From the NCBI GenBank assembly GCA_963797635.1, contig CAWCPZ010000010.1:204909-268908 (forward strand): a DNA stretch of 64,000 nt, written 5' to 3'. The DNA is from an uncultured Actinomycetes bacterium. GTDB lineage: Bacteria; Actinomycetota; UBA4738; HRBIN12. The notes under the pieces were generated by a model. The model was not told the origin of the DNA. It ran no database searches and was given only the letters and a program-made list of their open reading frames with translations. This document shows positions 1 through 13,370 of this stretch, piece after piece; the first letter of the stretch is position 1, and each line of letters starts with the position of its first letter. A program made the translations under genes and the position numbers.

Positions 1-598
1 CACGGTGATGCCCTGGTCGTGCACCAAGCGCTGCAACGCCGCCACGACGTGTTCGGCGCCTTGCGGATCGAGCTGGGACGTCGGCTCGTCCAGCACCAGG
101 ATCCGAGGGCCGGCCGCCAGCGCCGCCGCGATCGCGACCCGTTGACGCTCACCGCCGCTCAACGTGCGGACGCTGCGGGCGCGCAACGGTTCGATGTCGA
201 GCAGATCGAGCGTCTCCTCCACGCGCCGGCGCATGTGCGCGGGATCGACGCCCAGGTTCTCCATGCCGTACGCGAGTTCGTCCTCGACGCGATCGAGCAC
301 GAACGAGGCGCCCGGATCCTGCGGCACGAACGCCACCGCGTCGGCGAGCTTGCGCGGCGGGAACTCCAGCGTGTCGCGACCGTCCACCGTCACCCGGCCC
401 CGGAAGGTTCCGCCGGTGAAGTGCGGCACCAGGCCGTTCGAGGCCCGCAACAAGGTGGACTTGCCGGCGCCGGTCGGGCCCACCGCCAGCGCGAACGTGC
501 CTTCGTCGATGTCGAGCGTGACCTCGGTGAGCGCGTCGCGCGACGTGTCCGGATAGCGGAACCGCACGTCCTCGAAGCGCAGGGCGTGATCGCTCATC
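1..598 (-). CDS. ECF/cobalt-type ABC transporter ATP-binding protein (EcfA/CbiO-like), 5'-partial at the window edge
   Basis: The reverse-complement translation gives MSDHALRFEDVRFRYPD...GPTGAGKSTLL...LSGGERQRVAIAAALAAGPRILVLDEPTSQLDPQG... with Walker A, ABC signature and Walker B motifs. The ATG lies at about 596-598 and the frame runs off the window start. It is not in the ORF track because it is open-ended. Confidence 0.8.
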
Positions 599-1379
599 CG
601 TCGGCCTTCTGCCGGGGGAGGACGCCGGGCACGGCCAGCAGGGCGATCGTGGCGAGCAGCACCGGCTCGGCGTCCGGCCAGGTGAGCGGGAACGTCGACG
701 GATGGAGGCCGCCACGCCCGGTGAACGCCGCCACCATGAACACCCCCGCCGCCACCAGGGCGCACACGGTCATGACCACGGCACCCGTGGACCATCGCGC
801 CGGCCGGTAGCGCGACCGTCGCCCGCGGCCGTGGCCCCGCGCGTCCATGCTCTCGGCGAGGGTCACGGCCTCGTCCATCCCGGTCTCCAACACGGGGACG
901 GCGAGCGCGGGGAGGGTTCGCCAGCCGGCGGTGCGCAGGCCCCGCATGCGTTGGGCCTCACGCACCTGGCCCACCATGGCGATCGTGCGCGGGGCGATCG
1001 AGAGCGCGAGCGCCGCCGCGAGCGCGGGCTCGTGGAACCGGCGCGGCGCCAACCGCACCACGCCGAACGGATCGGTCACCGCGTTGAAGGTGCCGAACAC
1101 CACCAGCAGGGTGGCGAGCCGCGCACCTTCCAGCGCCGCGAACGCCACGCTGCTGGCGTCGACCGTCCCGAAGAACACCAGCGCCGTGCGCACCGCCATC
1201 GTCACCAGCCCTGCGATCGCGAAGACCCGGAAGGAGCGAGCCATCGGCCCCGGGATCCGCTGCGCGGCGTAGACGAACCACGCCACCGCCACGATCATCG
1301 CCAGGTAGAACGGATCGGTCGTGGTGAACGTCACCAGCCCGGCGCAGGTCGCCCACACGAGCCAGGCCGCCGGGTGCAT
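594..1379 (-). CDS. energy-coupling factor transporter transmembrane protein EcfT (CbiQ family)
   Basis: 261-aa polytopic membrane protein with the EcfT-like C-terminal motif ...ESMDARGHG. Its stop overlaps the start of the downstream ATPase, as expected for coupled ECF T and A genes. Confidence 0.75.
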   Translation of the reverse strand: MHPAAWLVWATCAGLVTFTTTDPFYLAMIVAVAWFVYAAQRIPGPMARSFRVFAIAGLVTMAVRTALVFFGTVDASSVAFAALEGARLATLLVVFGTFNAVTDPFGVVRLAPRRFHEPALAAALALSIAPRTIAMVGQVREAQRMRGLRTAGWRTLPALAVPVLETGMDEAVTLAESMDARGHGRGRRSRYRPARWSTGAVVMTVCALVAAGVFMVAAFTGRGGLHPSTFPLTWPDAEPVLLATIALLAVPGVLPRQKADG

Positions 1380-1384
1380 CCTGC

Positions 1385-2290
1385 TATCCGCCTCCGCGGG
1401 AGATCTGTCGCCGTCGCAGGAACCAGCCGCCCGCGCCCAGCGCGGCGACCGCCACGAGGGCCAGCAGGGCGCCCATCGGAGGGCCGCCGCCGCGCGTCGT
1501 CGGCGACGCCGGCCGCCAGCGCGGTCACGGGCGAGGCCTCCACGACCTCACCGGTGGACGGATCCACCTGGGGGGAACGGTCCTTGGCGTCGTCTCCGTG
1601 GGACCCGTTCGGACCGGAGGACCCGTGGGGGGACGCGGACGCGTCGGTGCCGGGCGTCGACGTCGCACCGTCGGGTCCCGAACCGGTTCCTCCGGCGGTC
1701 CCGCCGTTCCCGTCGCCGTGCCCGCCGGTTCCACCGCCGTTGCCGTCACCGTCGCCACCTCCGCCGGGCGACGGTGGAGGCGTCGGTGACGGGGTCGAGT
1801 CCTTGCAGACGTCGTCGAACCCGAGCGCGGGCGGAGCGGCGTGCGTGGTGCCCGAGTCGCCCGAGCCCCACACCCACCCTTCCATGTCGCCGTCACCGAT
1901 CGAGGCCGAACCCGCCCCCGAACCGGCCCAGCTCCATCCGCCGGAGCCGTTCCCGTGCCAGTACCCCCAGAAATCCGGATAGGAGCCGAAGCAGTCGCCG
2001 CCGCTCGCGCCCACCCCGGCGAGCTGGCACACCGCCTGTCCACCGAACCCGAGCTGGTACTGCAGCCCGAACTGCGAGCCGGCGAGCTGCACCAGGTGGA
2101 TGCCGGTCACGCTCGATGCATCGAGGGCCACGCAATACGTCGTGGTCTGCGACCCCGTGTTCACGACGAGGGCCGCATGCGAGGCGCCGGACGCTTCAGC
2201 GGCGCACGCCGGAGCCGATCCCGCCACCGCCGGCGCCAAGGCCGGGAGGGCGAGGATCAGACCGAACGTGAGCGTCCGCAGGCGACGCAT
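1385..2290 (-). CDS. SCO2322-family secreted Gly/Pro-rich protein with a C-terminal membrane anchor; apparent frameshift near 1470
   Basis: N-terminal signal peptide (MRRLRTLTFGLILALPALAPAVAG), a conserved HAALVVNTGSQTTTYCVALD...FWGYWHG domain, then a Gly/Pro/Thr-rich linker. A neighbouring frame encodes a terminal TM helix (MGALLALVAVAALGAGGWFLRRRQ) followed by a stop, so the printed ORF probably has a 1-nt indel. Confidence 0.55.
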
Positions 2291-2293
2291 GGC

Positions 2294-3292
2294 TCAGCAG
2301 GCCCCCGTCGCCGGCGCCGGCCCCGCGACGGGCCCGCTCAGCGGGAACGGCGTGCGCAACAGCCCGGGGATCGCGCCGATCGTGGCTCCCACGTCGGGAT
2401 CGCCCTTCACGTCGCCGTCCCACGTGTAGGCCCACGCGCCGCATGCCGGGTACTGCAACGTGCGCAACGACTTCAGGCCACCGGTCGGGATCGGCTCGCC
2501 GCCGGCGATGTAGGCCTGGAGCACCAGGCCGGTCGAGTTCGCGTCGGTGGCGATGAACGCGGTCGAGTAGGACCAGCCGTCGTGGCCCGGATCGCGCACC
2601 GTCTCGAAGAACGCGAAGGGGTCCGATCCCCACGATGTGCGGTCAGCGGCAGCCAGCGCCTGCACGACGTAGGAGGTGGAGTTCGAATCCGAGGTGAAGA
2701 AGTCGGTGCCCGAACCGTCGTCGCAGTGGTCGTCGTCCGTGCCGGGCGCGTAGGGGGCATCGTAGGACCACCCACCGTCGGGGCACTGTGCGTCCAGCAG
2801 CCAGCTGGTGACGGACGTGGCGGGCTTGACCCCGGCGGCCTCGATCGCGAGGACGCCGAGCGCCTGATCGAACACCGCCGCGTCATCGATGTGCCCGTCG
2901 TTGCCGATCTGCGAACGGATCGCCTGCAGCAGGTTCGTGCCGCCGAAGGTGCGGGGGTCACGGCCGACGGCCGACGCCGCCATGACCACCTTGGCCTGCA
3001 GGCCCACGCCGGTGACGTTGCCCGCCGCCACCTGGCGGCGGAGGTAGCCGAGCGCCTCGCGCATCGCAGGGCGGCCGGACCCGGTGGCCACGAAGGCCAG
3101 GACCGCGTCGGCGGTCGACCCGATCGGTGAGAACGCCGGGATCGAGCCGTTCGGTCGCTGCATGCCGGCGATGAACCCGGTGCCGCGTTCGGCTCGCTGT
3201 TGATCGGTGAGCGCTGCCGACGCCGATGCGGGAAGCATCACGACAGCCAAGGACAAGCAGGCGGCGACGATGCGCCGAGCGTTCGGGGCCAC
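2294..3292 (-). CDS. prenyltransferase/squalene-oxidase repeat-containing secreted protein (terpenoid-cyclase-like alpha/alpha toroid fold)
   Basis: Start is GTG at 3292, preceded by the RBS GGAAAGGAG. The signal peptide is ...RRIVAACLSLAVVMLPASASA, and the body carries repeated QxxDGGW/GWSY-type motifs typical of prenyltransferase alpha-alpha repeats. The track's 2294..3340 ORF has an N-terminal extension I rejected. Confidence 0.7.
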   Translation of the reverse strand: MAPNARRIVAACLSLAVVMLPASASAALTDQQRAERGTGFIAGMQRPNGSIPAFSPIGSTADAVLAFVATGSGRPAMREALGYLRRQVAAGNVTGVGLQAKVVMAASAVGRDPRTFGGTNLLQAIRSQIGNDGHIDDAAVFDQALGVLAIEAAGVKPATSVTSWLLDAQCPDGGWSYDAPYAPGTDDDHCDDGSGTDFFTSDSNSTSYVVQALAAADRTSWGSDPFAFFETVRDPGHDGWSYSTAFIATDANSTGLVLQAYIAGGEPIPTGGLKSLRTLQYPACGAWAYTWDGDVKGDPDVGATIGAIPGLLRTPFPLSGPVAGPAPATGAC

Positions 3293-3414
3293 GAGTGGCT
3301 CCTTTCCGGGCGTCCATCGCGCCCTCACGGAACGGACCACCCGATGAGGATCGACGTCGGCGCCCGGATCGGCGCCGGCGGCCCGTCCCCGTTCCTCGAG
3401 GGTCGTTCAGCCGA

Positions 3415-3545
3415 TGCGTCGCGCAGGGCGGCCTGGCTCGCACACGTGACGCTGGTGAGCGCCGGTGTGCCTACAGTTGCGGGACAGCGCCGGAATCTGA
3501 CCGGCTTCGCCTCCGCGACGCGGTGTGTTCCGCACGCTAGCAGAC
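3415..3545 (-). ncRNA. cobalamin (B12) riboswitch in the leader of the ECF operon
   Basis: The minus-strand sequence ...GCGGAGGCGAAGCCGGTCAGATTCCGGCGCTGTCCCGCAACTGTAGGCACACCGGCGC...GAGCCAGGCCGCC matches the B12-element core (GGGAA..GGTGnnAnTCC..CnGnCCCGCnACTGT) and the 3' B12 box (GAGCCAGGnnnCC). It sits about 125 nt upstream of the GTG start at 3292, with a GC-rich hairpin (GGCGCCGATCCGGGCGCC) in between. Confidence 0.65.
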
Positions 3546-3733
3546 CCGCGCGGAGGCCCGCCACTCGTGCATGGGTTCACGGTTCCGGCCCGGCATCCGG
3601 ACCCAAGTCCCGACTTTCGACCTAGGGAATCGGGGTATCGCTGGACAGAGCCTCGGGTATAGGTTCGTGCAGAACGCACACGCGAGCCCGGCCCGGAACG
3701 CGGGTCGATCGCCGCGAAAGGAGCTTCTCCGAG

Positions 3734-5434
3734 ATGACCCGATACCTCTGCGTCGACCCGAGCCACACGCTGGGCGGTGAACCCGCTGCCATCGACCTGA
3801 CCGCCCAGGTCCGCCTCGAGCGCGAGTTCCTGCCGCGTGAATCCGCCTATCTCGCCGATTCCGGCGACGTGATCCGCCGGGTGAACGACCTCGGCGAGGT
3901 CGACGGCGCCCTGCGCGCGGCCGCCGTGCGCCGCATCCTCACCGGCACCACCACCCCGCTCGACGCGCCCGTGGTGTTGGTGGCCGGCGACCGGACCGAA
4001 CGCGTGCCCGGCCTCTACGAGATGGACGAACTCCGTCGCAGCGAGCGATCGGTGGCGTCCCTGCTCGATCGGTACGCCCAGACGAGCCTGGCCCGCGAAG
4101 GCTCGGAGGATCTCGTGGTGCTGCGCGATCAGCAGCCGCCCTTGCGACCGGACGGATCCACGGTGCAGCCCGGTCAAGGCCCCACCGTGCAGTCAGCACC
4201 CATCAGCCCCATGGTGGAGACGGTGTCGATCCCGGAGGTCCGGTCGGACGAGGCGATCGTGTTGCCGCAGGGCGTCTACCCCGTGCTCGAACTCGCGACG
4301 CGGCTCGCCGAAGCCGACGTCGAGACCGATTCGCTCGTCGACGTGATCCATGCCACGCCCTCGTACGGCTCGCTCGCCACCGAGGAGTCGCACCGTCCCT
4401 GGCGCGTGATCGTGGAGTGTCCCGTCGCCACCGGCGAACCGTTGACCCGTCACCAGATGATCTTCACGGGCACCGGCGAGACCGAACCCGTCGAGGTGCT
4501 CGGCACGCCCGCCGTCGGCAACGACGTGGTCCTGGACACCGCCGCCTCGAAGGAAGCGGTGATGCCGTTCCCGGCCCGGCGGGCCGAACGCGGTCTGCAG
4601 ATCGCATTGCTGGCTGCCGCGTTGATCGCGGCCGCCGTGCTCATCATCACCTGGATCTCCGGCGGGCTCGCGCTCGCGGTGCGGGAGACCCCCGTGTGGC
4701 TCGGCCTGTCGGTGACCCTGGGCGTCGCCGCGATGGCGGTGGGGTTGGTGGCGCTGGCGTCGCGGTCGGACGCCGAGGGCAACACCAACGACACGTTCGT
4801 GTTGCGCCGCCACTACGCGAGCCGCATCGACATGCTGTGGTACGCCACGCTGGCCACCGCCGTGCTGTTCTCCCTCTCGGTCGCCGCCGGCGTGATCCCG
4901 CCGATCCTGGCGTCCGAGACGCCGGTGCCGTCGGCGGCGATCACGTTCGACGCCGGCCGCGCGCTGGTGACGGCCACGGTGCAGGTCCAGACCCAGGGTC
5001 TGGCCACCGACCAACCGGTCACCGTCCAGATGCGTCAGTACAGCTCCGAGACGAGCAACGGCATCCTCATCGGTCTCGTCACCTCCACCGGCGATCCCTC
5101 CGGGGACACGGTGATCGGGGAGACGGTCTCGCTCGATGCCGGGGCTCGCTACATGAGCGTGCAGGTCATCATGGGCAACGATCCGGTGACGACGTGCACA
5201 CCGCTCGAAGCCGGCGGCCCAGGCTGCACCGTGGTGTCGGTGCCGCCGCTCGGCGCGGGCATCGTGCGGTTGGTGCCGGCCACCTCGGCGCTCGACGTGA
5301 TCGCGGCGACGGAGCCCACGACCAGCCCGGTCGTGCCGACGCCGTCCACCTCGGGCATCCCGACCCCGTCCGCCTCGGTGCCGACCTCGGCCGTCCCGAC
5401 GACGACGCTGAGCCCGTCCGCCTCGCCGTTCTAG
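3734..5434 (+). CDS. hypothetical membrane protein (cytoplasmic N-domain, 2 TM helices, extracytoplasmic domain, Pro/Thr/Ser-rich C-terminal tail)
   Basis: Single uninterrupted 566-aa ORF. Hydrophobic segments lie at about aa 290-340. The C-terminus is TTSPVVPTPSTSGIPTPSASVPTSAVPTTTLSPSASPF. No recognisable catalytic motif. Confidence 0.5.
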   Translation: MTRYLCVDPSHTLGGEPAAIDLTAQVRLEREFLPRESAYLADSGDVIRRVNDLGEVDGALRAAAVRRILTGTTTPLDAPVVLVAGDRTERVPGLYEMDELRRSERSVASLLDRYAQTSLAREGSEDLVVLRDQQPPLRPDGSTVQPGQGPTVQSAPISPMVETVSIPEVRSDEAIVLPQGVYPVLELATRLAEADVETDSLVDVIHATPSYGSLATEESHRPWRVIVECPVATGEPLTRHQMIFTGTGETEPVEVLGTPAVGNDVVLDTAASKEAVMPFPARRAERGLQIALLAAALIAAAVLIITWISGGLALAVRETPVWLGLSVTLGVAAMAVGLVALASRSDAEGNTNDTFVLRRHYASRIDMLWYATLATAVLFSLSVAAGVIPPILASETPVPSAAITFDAGRALVTATVQVQTQGLATDQPVTVQMRQYSSETSNGILIGLVTSTGDPSGDTVIGETVSLDAGARYMSVQVIMGNDPVTTCTPLEAGGPGCTVVSVPPLGAGIVRLVPATSALDVIAATEPTTSPVVPTPSTSGIPTPSASVPTSAVPTTTLSPSASPF

Positions 5435-12179: not shown

Positions 12180-12835
12180 ACATCGCGGTGTCCAACGCGC
12201 CCAACTCGCGGAGCCAGATCAGGAGATGAGCCTCCATGGCGCGAGCCGCGGTGATGTCGCCCAGATCGAGGATGTCCCGCCACCCGAAGGACTCCAGGAT
12301 CGCGGTGACCTCGGCCTTGGCGTCGGCGTCGTTGCCGCACAGCGGGATCGTGTGGTCGCCGCCGGCGAGGGCGCCCGGGTCGGTCATCAGCGCCGCCGTC
12401 ATCGTGTTCCACACCTTCACGAATCGAGCCTGCGGGAAGGGCGGCCTGCAACCGTTCGCCGAGCGAATCGGTGTTGGCGACGAACAAGCTGGGCGGCCAA
12501 CCCGACGCGTGGTCGATCGGGTTGGACGCGTCGAGCACGATCGTCCCGGTGAGGTGCTCGCCCCCGGCGCTCAGCGCGGCCTCGGAGCCTTCACCGTCGG
12601 TGGCGTTCACGACGATCTCGCCGTGGGCCATCGCGTCGGCCTGGGTCGTGAGCCCGATCTCCGGGTGCTCCGCCTTCCACTGCGCGAACGGTGGGTTCCC
12701 CATGGCGTCGCCCTCGGTGCGCGCCATCAACGCCTCGACGTCGCGCGTCCCGATCACGACGTCATGGCCTTTCTGGGTGAAGCCCTGCGCCAAGGTCCGT
12801 CCGACGGTTCCCGTGCCCACGATGCCGACCTGCAT
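12157..12835 (-). CDS. NADPH-dependent F420 reductase-like NAD(P)-binding oxidoreductase; frameshifted near 12425
   Basis: The N-terminal part (MQVGIVGTGTVGRTLAQGFTQKGHDVVIGTRD...) and the C-terminal part (MKVWNTMTAALMTDPGALAGGDHTIPLCGNDADAKAEV...) are in adjacent frames. Deleting one C in CTTCCCGCA restores ...QAALPQARFVKVWNTM. Confidence 0.65.
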
Positions 12836-12959
12836 CTGCCGCTCCCTTCGTCGTGGCACCATCTTGGGACATGCCCCACGTTCCGACTCCCGGGCCCGTC
12901 GCGCACCTGTCGTGGATCGAGGGGTGACCTTCCCGCCCGTCTCGCGCTACGGTTCACCC

Positions 12960-13370
12960 ATGACGGCGAAAGGAAGCGGCACGCCGGAAGACCCGTGGGT
13001 GTTGCAGACGCCCAGCCTCCAGTCGGAGTACCTGATGGCTCGGGCGCCGGACGCGGATCCGCCGGCGCTGATCTGCACGGTCGGCAAGACCGAACTGCGC
13101 TATCACCTGCGGGCGATCGAGGACCTGCACGCGATGTTGGTGGCCCACGGCGACTGGATGCCGCTGGGCAACGCCGACGAGCAGAAGCCCGCGAAGGACG
13201 GCACGGTCGAAGCATGGGCTCGCTCGACCGACAACCCGGTGGGCGGGTGGTACGGATTGAAGAAAGGGTTGCGCGGGCGCTTCGGCAACTACGTGCCGCC
13301 GGTGCTCGAGGTGCTGGGTCTCGCCGAGGTGGAGCACAACCCCCGCAACAACCGGATGCGCGCTATCTGA
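12960..13370 (+). CDS. conserved actinobacterial hypothetical protein
   Basis: Start at ATG 12960 (MTAKGSGTPEDPWVLQTPSLQSEYLMARAPDADPPALI...NPVGGWYGLKKGLRGRFGNYVPPVLEVLGLAEVEHNPRNNRMRAI). The upstream part of track ORF 12471..13370 is antisense to the reductase gene. Confidence 0.55.
   Translation: MTAKGSGTPEDPWVLQTPSLQSEYLMARAPDADPPALICTVGKTELRYHLRAIEDLHAMLVAHGDWMPLGNADEQKPAKDGTVEAWARSTDNPVGGWYGLKKGLRGRFGNYVPPVLEVLGLAEVEHNPRNNRMRAI

What the first reader, a model, noticed from the sequence alone, without database searches (positions are those of the whole stretch)
1..3292. ECF-type importer with no S-component gene but two extracytoplasmic proteins (SCO2322-family anchored protein and a prenyltransferase-like alpha/alpha-toroid protein)
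Canonical ECF transporters pair EcfA/EcfT with an integral-membrane S-component. Here the riboswitch-controlled operon encodes EcfT and EcfA plus a signal-peptide protein with a terpene-cyclase/prenyltransferase-like repeat fold, and a Gly/Pro-rich secreted protein that seems to end in a single C-terminal TM anchor. No 6-TM S-component ORF is visible (the operon runs off the window after ecfA, so a downstream S-gene cannot be excluded). This suggests an uncharacterised substrate-capture mode for a B12/cobalt-related ECF system. The alpha/alpha-toroid protein is a candidate extracellular corrinoid or metal binder.
Basis: inference. Interest (0 to 1): 0.8.

Follow-up and report, generated by a model that had tools for sequence, protein, structure and literature searches.

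The report
B12 importer with split transcobalamin-like catcher
This is a vitamin-B12-regulated ECF uptake operon whose membrane S-component gene lies just past the window edge, and whose two secreted proteins look like the two halves of animal transcobalamin, a kind of system already predicted in 2007 and described in Lactobacillus sakei.

Summary

The headline claim, an ECF importer with no S-component, comes from the window edge. In a contig 99% identical to the window, the operon continues with a fused EcfA-A' ATPase and then a 277-aa Pfam ECF_trnsprt S-component. In 65 of 66 related loci all five genes occur in this order. A profile of that S-component has one meaningful match among solved structures, CbrT, the vitamin-B12 S-component.

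So this is best read as a "split transcobalamin" that captures corrinoid at the cell surface and feeds a CbrT-like ECF transporter. This kind of system was predicted by Burroughs et al. (2007), and the same five-part layout was reported in L. sakei (lsa1836-1840). I rate it a new actinobacterial member of a known, biochemically untested kind.

In the window, a 1-nt insertion puts the anchor of the linker protein out of frame.

The parts
3432..3505 (-). Cobalamin riboswitch aptamer core. This is a local match to model positions 51-163. The full aptamer probably extends to about 3560.
   Evidence: RF00174 scores 31.5 bits, equal to the gathering score. The core 21-mer CCGGCGCTGTCCCGCAACTGT is identical in 66 of 78 upstream regions examined. 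Hits at or above the gathering score, 32-96 bits, occur at the same position in L027, L077, L056, L029, L046, L065, L070 and L081.
2294..3292 (-). Secreted alpha/alpha-toroid protein, 332 aa. It has an N-terminal signal peptide and four invariant Cys. It is the proposed counterpart of the transcobalamin alpha domain.
1384..2290 (-). Cell-surface tethered transcobalamin-beta-like (SLBB) protein. It comprises a signal peptide, a domain of about 125 aa, a Gly/Ser/Pro/Asp linker of about 105 aa, and a C-terminal hydrophobic anchor with an RRR tail. In the window a 1-nt insertion near 1494 shifts the anchor (1384-1476) out of frame.
594..1379 (-). EcfT, the transmembrane coupling subunit, 261 aa.
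   Evidence: Pfam CbiQ scores only 19.1 bits, below its gathering score. A profile of 20 orthologues matches only EcfT chains in the PDB, 5d3m_D at E 4.7e-16. A conserved 'DARGHG' stretch resembles what I recall as EcfT's Ala-Arg-Gly coupling motif (sequence seen; the motif assignment rests on my own knowledge).
1..597 (-). First 199 codons of a fused EcfA-EcfA' ATPase. It is about 522 aa in relatives and is cut by the window edge. The ATG overlaps the ecfT stop codon (ATGA).
   Evidence: ABC_tran scores 90.7 bits. TIGR04520 ECF_ATPase_1 gives E 1.3e-48. The full-length fused gene is followed by the S-component in L001 (10783-12361, then 12383-13216) and in L004.

Best explanation
The window holds the first four and a half genes of a five-gene operon repressed by cobalamin. 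The operon encodes a dedicated ECF-type corrinoid importer.

The transporter proper is EcfT, a fused EcfA-A' ATPase and a CbrT-like S-component. The S-component gene lies just beyond the window start.

Upstream of these are two exported proteins that together reproduce the two halves of animal transcobalamin:
- a free alpha6/alpha6 toroid;
- a beta-grasp (SLBB) domain held at the cell surface by a flexible linker of about 105 residues and a C-terminal hydrophobic anchor.

Proposed mechanism:
1. When intracellular B12 is low, the riboswitch lets the operon be expressed.
2. The toroid and the tethered SLBB domain close around a corrinoid (cobalamin, cobinamide or another cobamide) in or above the thick actinobacterial wall.
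3. The tether brings the complex to the membrane.
4. The ligand passes to the S-component, which topples in the ECF module and releases it inside at the cost of ATP.

What is shown here: gene content and order, B12 regulation, the folds, S-component homology to CbrT, and the existence of fused relatives.

What is inferred: corrinoid binding by the pair, heterodimer formation, and hand-over to the S-component.
For: Operon content:
- L001 is 98.96% identical to the window over 5 kb. It continues with ecfAA' and a PF12822 S-component.
- All five genes are in the same order and on the same strand in 65 of 66 loci, including an Anaerolineae locus.

B12 control:
- RF00174 hits occur in the window and in eight relatives, from 32 to 96 bits. 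These include Anaerolineae (L077) and Ruminococcus (L081).
- The riboswitch core 21-mer is identical in 66 of 78 upstream regions.

Corrinoid specificity:
- The S-component profile has only one PDB match below E = 1, 6fnp_A (E 1.6e-6), the 182-aa membrane chain of ECF-CbrT. That transporter was shown to carry cobalamin and cobinamide (PMC5997447).

The two proteins work together:
- P0349 is toroid-SLBB-anchor in one chain, the transcobalamin domain order. P0345 is SLBB x2 followed by toroid.
- The two genes are adjacent in every locus.

Export:
- Both have signal peptides, and both have sets of invariant Cys.

Precedent:
- PMC1796856 predicted B12 scavenging by bacterial TC-like SLBB proteins, with or without a toroid, in CbiO/CbiQ operons.
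- L. sakei lsa1836-1840 has the same five parts.
- The Ruminococcus locus L081 has true DUF4430 proteins (75 bits), a toroid, EcfT and an EcfAA'-S fusion behind a Cbl riboswitch.
Against: - There is no binding or transport data for any member of this actinobacterial family.
- The SLBB domain has no sequence-level match to DUF4430 or to any PDB chain.
- The one homologous-looking system studied experimentally, in L. sakei, was linked to heme rather than B12 uptake.
- Cobalamin riboswitches also control cobalt transporters.
- The S-component itself was seen only in relatives, not in the window.
- I could not model the heterodimer or the ligand.
Confidence: 0.62

Rival explanations
1. One reading: an ECF module that lacks an S-component and relies on the two extracytoplasmic proteins alone to capture and deliver substrate.
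For: No S-component ORF lies within window 1-3292.
Against: A PF12822 S-component gene directly follows ecfAA' in the 99%-identical contig L001 and in 65 of 66 related loci. In Ruminococcus it is fused to the ATPase.
Confidence: 0.02
2. The system imports heme or another non-corrin tetrapyrrole, as proposed for L. sakei lsa1836-1840. The B12 riboswitch would then reflect cross-regulation.
For: Deleting the similarly built L. sakei operon lowered heme uptake. Its authors docked heme between the alpha-like and beta-like proteins.
Against: Cbl riboswitch control is conserved in three phyla. The S-component's only solved relative is CbrT, whose transport is not competed by hemin. The best fold matches are cobalamin-binding domains.
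Confidence: 0.1
3. The system imports cobalt ions for B12 synthesis. The secreted proteins would act as metal binders.
For: Cbl riboswitches commonly control cobalt importers (my own knowledge). A conserved acidic loop with His and Cys lies in the toroid (residues 185-197). A His-rich small ORF follows the operon in 23 of 66 loci.
Against: The S-component belongs to PF12822 and is CbrT-like. No NCBIfam cobalt or nickel S-component family matched it at E <= 1. No gene encoding a small CbiN-like membrane protein lies among the five genes. The SLBB and toroid folds match corrinoid carriers.
Confidence: 0.06
4. The toroid is an extracytoplasmic enzyme, related to terpene cyclases, prenyltransferases or glycoside hydrolases, that acts on an envelope lipid or glycan or processes corrinoids. 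It would be merely co-transcribed with the transporter.
Against: I saw no DxDD motif. In the TDDxHC loop the third Asp is not conserved. The protein is exported, away from prenyl diphosphates. It always sits next to the SLBB gene and is fused to it in relatives. The lone paralogue is also under B12 control.
Confidence: 0.08

Closest known systems
Latilactobacillus sakei lsa1836-1840 'ECF-like' system (Verplaetse et al., bioRxiv 10.1101/864751)
   Same: It has the same five parts: S-component, fused EcfA-A', EcfT, an exported protein like the transcobalamin beta domain, and an exported prenyltransferase-like protein like the alpha domain.
   Different: It is from Firmicutes. The authors assign heme uptake, and I found no mention of a riboswitch in the passages read. 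In the present system the SLBB protein belongs to a different sequence family (no DUF4430 match), carries a long linker with a C-terminal anchor, and the operon sits behind a Cbl riboswitch. I could not compare the sequences directly because the L. sakei proteins were not available to the tools.
Transcobalamin-like clade of the SLBB superfamily in bacteria (Burroughs, Balaji, Iyer, Aravind 2007, PMC1796856); Pfam DUF4430
   Different: The paper calls the clade a Gram-positive innovation. In the passages I read, its named toroid-fusion examples are from Bacillus and Desulfotomaculum. The Pfam DUF4430 model does not detect the present domain. Its homologues carry a different precomputed Pfam accession, PF28005, which is absent from the local library.
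ECF-CbrT of Lactobacillus delbrueckii (PDB 6FNP; Santos et al. 2018, PMC5997447)
   Same: It is an ECF transporter whose S-component is the only meaningful solved relative of the S-component here (E 1.6e-6). It carries cobalamin and cobinamide using ATP.
   Different: CbrT shares a general ECF module and works without extracytoplasmic helper proteins in vitro. Here the module is dedicated and the ATPases are fused. The S-component is 277 aa with about 90 extra N-terminal residues and two extra predicted TM helices. Two exported proteins are co-encoded.
Mammalian transcobalamin, intrinsic factor and haptocorrin
   Same: An alpha6/alpha6 toroid and a beta-grasp domain with a hairpin insert sandwich one cobalamin. 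Both folds are found here.

Membership tests
ECF-type ABC importer (dedicated module) | EcfT transmembrane coupling subunit | tested here: met
   The profile of 20 orthologues matches only EcfT chains in the PDB (E 4.7e-16 to 3e-13). The single-sequence Pfam CbiQ score is below the gathering score (19.1 against 25).
ECF-type ABC importer (dedicated module) | EcfA/EcfA' ATPases | tested here: met
   ABC_tran scores 90.7 bits. ECF_ATPase_1 gives E 1.3e-48 on the 199 residues in the window. The full fused protein of about 522 aa is present in relatives.
ECF-type ABC importer (dedicated module) | Integral-membrane S-component | tested here: met
   It is not in the window. It is present directly downstream in L001 and L004 and in 65 of 66 loci. 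PF12822 scores 41.2 bits against a gathering score of 30.7, and 24 of 24 members match.
CbrT-type vitamin B12 S-component | Sequence homology to CbrT | tested here: inconclusive
   The profile matches 6fnp_A at E 1.6e-6, domain score 22.5 bits. It is the only PDB hit below E = 1. Single-sequence phmmer finds nothing. The match is distant and the protein has an extra N-terminal region.
CbrT-type vitamin B12 S-component | Binding and transport of cobalamin or cobinamide | not testable with these tools
   This needs transport or binding assays.
Transcobalamin-like SLBB / DUF4430 (PF14478) | Beta-grasp fold of the transcobalamin beta-domain type | tested here: met
Transcobalamin-like SLBB / DUF4430 (PF14478) | Match to the Pfam DUF4430 model | tested here: not met
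   There is no DUF4430 hit at E <= 10. hhalign against a true DUF4430 domain from L081 gives probability 0.5%. More distant family members also lack it.
Transcobalamin-like SLBB / DUF4430 (PF14478) | Exported or anchored, next to or fused with an alpha/alpha toroid, in a CbiO/CbiQ operon | tested here: met
   Signal peptide and C-terminal anchor. Gene adjacency. Fusions P0349 and P0345.
NCBIfam SCO2322_fam (NF040672) and SCO2321_fam (NF053823) | Score above the curated cutoff | tested here: not met
   SCO2322_fam scores 30.7 against 85. SCO2321_fam scores 92.7 against 300. These are related families, not the same ones.
Prenyltransferase / class II terpene cyclase alpha/alpha toroid | Alpha6/alpha6 toroid with QW-type repeats | tested here: met
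Prenyltransferase / class II terpene cyclase alpha/alpha toroid | Catalytic DxDD motif or Zn site, with cytoplasmic or membrane access to prenyl substrates | tested here: inconclusive
   I found no conserved DxDD by inspecting the alignment columns. The protein is exported. No structure-based active-site check was possible.
Cobalamin riboswitch (RF00174) | Covariance-model score at or above the gathering score | tested here: met
   The window scores 31.5, equal to the gathering score and therefore borderline. Homologous elements at the same position in relatives score 32-96 bits.

The most novel reading that the evidence does not exclude
The toroid and the tethered SLBB domain form an obligate non-covalent 'bacterial transcobalamin' on a flexible leash. 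It captures corrinoids outside the membrane and docks on the extended N-terminal region of a CbrT-like S-component. That would make this an ECF transporter that depends on a binding protein, against the textbook rule that ECF systems need no extracytoplasmic binding protein. It would also be a living example of the split prokaryotic precursor of the animal B12 carriers.
Probability: 0.4. Interest if true: 0.6.

Novelty: new member of a known kind. Interest (0 to 1): 0.35.

Why it matters
ECF transporters are taught as importers that need no soluble binding protein. How Gram-positive bacteria catch scarce corrinoids outside the membrane is poorly known.

This operon shows that a large group of uncultured soil Actinomycetota pair a CbrT-like ECF transporter with a two-piece transcobalamin look-alike under B12 control. 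A profile search of the tethered domain found 2675 clusters of relatives at 50% identity.

That gives a clean, riboswitch-supported case in which to test a 2007 prediction that is still biochemically open. It could also help resolve whether the related L. sakei system is really a heme importer or a corrinoid importer.

It is not a new kind of system, and the S-less reading is wrong.

Tried and rejected
- Exact look-up of the toroid protein found no record. The EcfT look-up worked instead.
- Single-sequence Pfam scans of the toroid and the linker protein gave nothing.
- Profile searches of the SLBB family against PDB sequences gave nothing.
- hhalign of the SLBB profile against a Ruminococcus DUF4430 domain was negative, probability 0.5%.
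- P0267 looked like a toroid-SLBB fusion. It is a frameshift or gene-call artefact, because a second signal peptide lies inside it. I rejected it as Rosetta-stone evidence.
- The promoter and terminator consensus scan around the riboswitch found nothing. The expression platform is undefined.
- Rodionov et al. 2009 (PMC2612444) is not held, so the cbrS and cbrT definitions could not be read.
- Literature searches for SCO2321-SCO2324 found nothing relevant.
- A mir-2518 match at 3698-3765 (23.8 bits against a gathering score of 61) is chance.
- I considered a lipobox at the nearly invariant Cys29 of the SLBB protein and an LPXTG-type sortase signal at its C-terminus. Some homologues have I/V/A-P-S-x-G and are named LPXTG proteins by JGI. 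The window sequence has no such motif, so I describe only a hydrophobic anchor.
Full report
**What is in the window**

On the minus strand of 1-3600 lie, in order, five features.
- A Cobalamin riboswitch match (RF00174) at 3432-3505. It scores 31.5 bits, exactly the gathering score, and covers model positions 51-163.
- A 332-codon gene at 2294-3292. Its GTG start lies 7 nt after GGAAAGGAG.
- A gene starting at 2290.
- A 261-codon gene at 594-1379.
- A gene starting at 597 that runs off the window.

The stop and start codons are 3-4 nt apart or overlap (ATGA at 594-597). This is one tightly coupled transcription unit.

**Identity of the transporter genes**

- The last gene is an ECF-type ATPase. 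ABC_tran scores 90.7 bits and TIGR04520 gives E 1.3e-48 on the 199 residues available.
- The 261-aa protein scores only 19.1 bits on Pfam CbiQ, below threshold.
- A profile of 20 orthologues of that protein matches only EcfT chains among all PDB sequences, at E 4.7e-16 to 3e-13. It is EcfT.

**The S-component**

An exact-sequence look-up of EcfT found a 698-kb metagenomic contig, L001. It is 98.96% identical to the window over 5 kb and collinear with it.

In L001, ecfT is followed by a fused EcfA-EcfA' gene of about 522 codons. That assembly breaks it with a frameshift. About 20 nt later comes a 277-codon gene for a multi-TM protein.
- The protein passes Pfam's gathering score for PF12822, the ECF transporter substrate-specific component (41.2 against 30.7 bits).
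- A scan of one genome per species returned 78 loci. Almost all are from uncultured Actinomycetota. Single loci are labelled Anaerolineae, Planctomycetaceae, Acidobacteriota and Ruminococcus.
- tblastn with the five proteins shows toroid, linker protein, EcfT, EcfAA' and S-component in that order on one strand in 65 of the 66 loci with at least 5.4 kb after the first gene.
- All 24 S-components scanned match PF12822.

The missing S-component is an effect of the window edge.

**Which S-component it is**

Single-sequence searches of the PDB find nothing. A profile of 24 orthologues has one meaningful hit, 6fnp_A (E 1.6e-6).
- 6FNP is the ECF-CbrT structure.
- The 182-aa membrane chain is neither the EcfT chain (listed separately) nor an ATPase. 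By elimination it is CbrT.
- ECF-CbrT transports cobalamin and cobinamide with ATP, and hemin does not compete (PMC5997447).
- The protein here has about 90 extra N-terminal residues with two further predicted TM segments.

**Regulation**

The borderline riboswitch score in the window is backed by relatives.
- RF00174 hits at or above the gathering score lie just upstream of the first gene in L027 (85.9 bits), L077 (61.4), L056 (35.2), L029 (96.3), L046 (95.1) and L065 (44.1). L077 is labelled Anaerolineae.
- The Ruminococcus locus L081 also has one (32.2 bits).
- The core 21-mer CCGGCGCTGTCCCGCAACTGT is identical 157-225 nt upstream of the gene in 66 of 78 upstream regions. The encoded proteins are only 40-75% identical.

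B12 control of the operon is thus conserved across three phyla. I could not define the expression platform. The consensus scans found no promoter and no intrinsic terminator.

**The toroid protein**

- It has a signal peptide, which is its only hydrophobic segment.
- It has four invariant cysteines, including the C-terminal residue, which fits an exported, disulfide-bonded protein.
- The AF2 model is confident (pLDDT 92.4) and is an alpha6/alpha6 toroid.
- At sequence level the family profile matches squalene-hopene cyclase through its QW-type repeats (E 2.9e-11).

On its own, the fold does not say what the protein binds.

**The linker protein**

In the window the long ORF (1331-2290) ends in an Arg-rich tail with no anchor. 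The anchor (MGALLALVAVAALGAGGWFLRRRQISRGGG) is a separate 30-codon ORF in another frame.
- Alignment with L001, L002 and L003 shows one extra base in the window near 1494, inside a GC run. Without it the protein is about 301 aa and ends in the anchor.
- Homologues all share this layout: signal peptide, a conserved domain of about 125 aa with invariant Cys and Trp, a low-complexity linker, a GGPP-x-G stretch, a hydrophobic segment and an RRR tail. The linker here is 105 residues, 29 of them Gly.
- The AF2 model of the N-domain has pLDDT 86.
  - then a drop to 7.1 or less for generic beta-grasp proteins.
- Sequence methods do not see this relationship. There is no Pfam DUF4430 hit and no PDB hit with the profile, and hhalign to a true DUF4430 domain is negative.
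- NCBIfam SCO2322_fam scores 30.7 against a cutoff of 85. The family is related to the Streptomyces one but is not the same.

**Do the two exported proteins act together?**

- The two genes are adjacent in every locus.
- A profile search of 1.84 billion representatives found 2675 clusters of SLBB-domain relatives at E <= 0.001.
- P0349 is toroid, linker, SLBB, linker and anchor in one chain, the domain order of transcobalamin.
- P0345 is a signal peptide, two SLBB domains and a C-terminal toroid.
- P0267, which looked like a third fusion, contains an internal signal peptide and frameshifted junk. I discarded it.

**Literature**

- Burroughs, Balaji, Iyer and Aravind (2007, PMC1796856) defined the transcobalamin-like clade of the SLBB superfamily. 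[quoted passage not shown] They noted that host genomes usually lack B12 synthesis enzymes, and they proposed B12 scavenging.
- A 2019 preprint on L. sakei (10.1101/864751) describes lsa1836-1840 as EcfS, fused EcfAA', EcfT, a transcobalamin-beta-like protein and a transcobalamin-alpha-like (geranylgeranyltransferase-like) protein. It reports that deleting the operon lowers heme uptake.
- The Ruminococcus locus L081 found here shows the Firmicutes version directly. It has a Cbl riboswitch, a DUF4430 protein with a dockerin, a toroid with a dockerin, a membrane-anchored DUF4430 protein (75 bits), EcfT, and an 872-aa EcfAA'-S fusion.

I found nothing on the actinobacterial families.

**Interpretation**

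The best reading is a B12-repressed, dedicated ECF corrinoid importer with a CbrT-like S-component. In front of it sits a two-piece, cell-surface, transcobalamin-like capture device.
- Shown here: gene content and order, B12 regulation, both folds, S-component homology, and fused relatives.
- Inferred: corrinoid binding, heterodimer formation and hand-over to the S-component.
- Rivals: heme uptake, cobalt uptake, and an enzymatic role for the toroid. I rate each at 0.1 or less, for the reasons given in the rival entries.

**Verdict**

Its secondary idea, an extracellular corrinoid binder, is supported and sharpened.
- The system is a new actinobacterial, Cbl-riboswitch-controlled member of a kind predicted in 2007 and described in L. 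sakei.
- Corrinoid binding and transport by these proteins have not, in the papers I could search, been tested biochemically. That keeps some interest (0.35).

Noticed in passing
L001 13266-13499 (beyond the window start); same position in 23 of 66 loci: A His-rich ORF of about 77 aa with the conserved motif CGHEAV-x-HGDHVDY-x-H-x-GHRH lies 115-242 nt downstream of the S-component on the same strand. The motif occurs nowhere else in any frame of the loci. It has no Pfam or NCBIfam match. It may be a sporadic sixth gene, perhaps a metal-binding protein.
   Followed up: partly
L070 9667-10942: A lone toroid paralogue, 38% identical, has its own Cobalamin riboswitch (40.2 bits) and is not followed by SLBB or ECF genes. 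It is in the same MAG (BP_567) that carries the full operon in L065.
   Followed up: partly
L081 3497-10678 (Ruminococcus MAG): This is the Firmicutes version of the module. The toroid and one DUF4430 protein end in type I dockerin domains, which suggests attachment to a cohesin scaffold. A second DUF4430 protein is anchored N-terminally through an S/T/P-rich linker. EcfAA' is fused to the S-component in one 872-aa protein.
   Followed up: partly
window about 1491-1495 (minus-strand gene 1384-2290): A one-base insertion relative to L001, L002 and L003 puts the C-terminal anchor out of frame. L001 has different frameshifts in the same gene and in ecfAA'. Assembly errors in these GC-rich runs are therefore plausible.
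   Followed up: yes
L059 8584-8959, L064 5885-6307, L065 15010-15434: The RNase P RNA gene lies after the S-component gene in several relatives, within about 30-80 nt in L059 and L065 and about 730 nt in L064. In those genomes it marks the end of the operon.
   Followed up: no
S-component in L001 12383-13216: Compared with CbrT (182 aa), the S-component has about 90 extra N-terminal residues with two extra predicted TM segments (34-52 and 68-86). This could be a docking site for the exported proteins.
   Followed up: no
window 2720-2755 (toroid residues 185-197): A conserved acidic loop T-D-D-x-H-C-x-D-G...D has an invariant Cys190, a His189 conserved in 26 of 35 sequences, and lower model confidence. 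It is reminiscent of ligand-contacting or cobalt-coordinating loops, but I could not examine it structurally.
   Followed up: no
window 3698-3765 (+): A sub-threshold match to the mir-2518 microRNA family (23.8 bits against a gathering score of 61). I treat it as chance.
   Followed up: no
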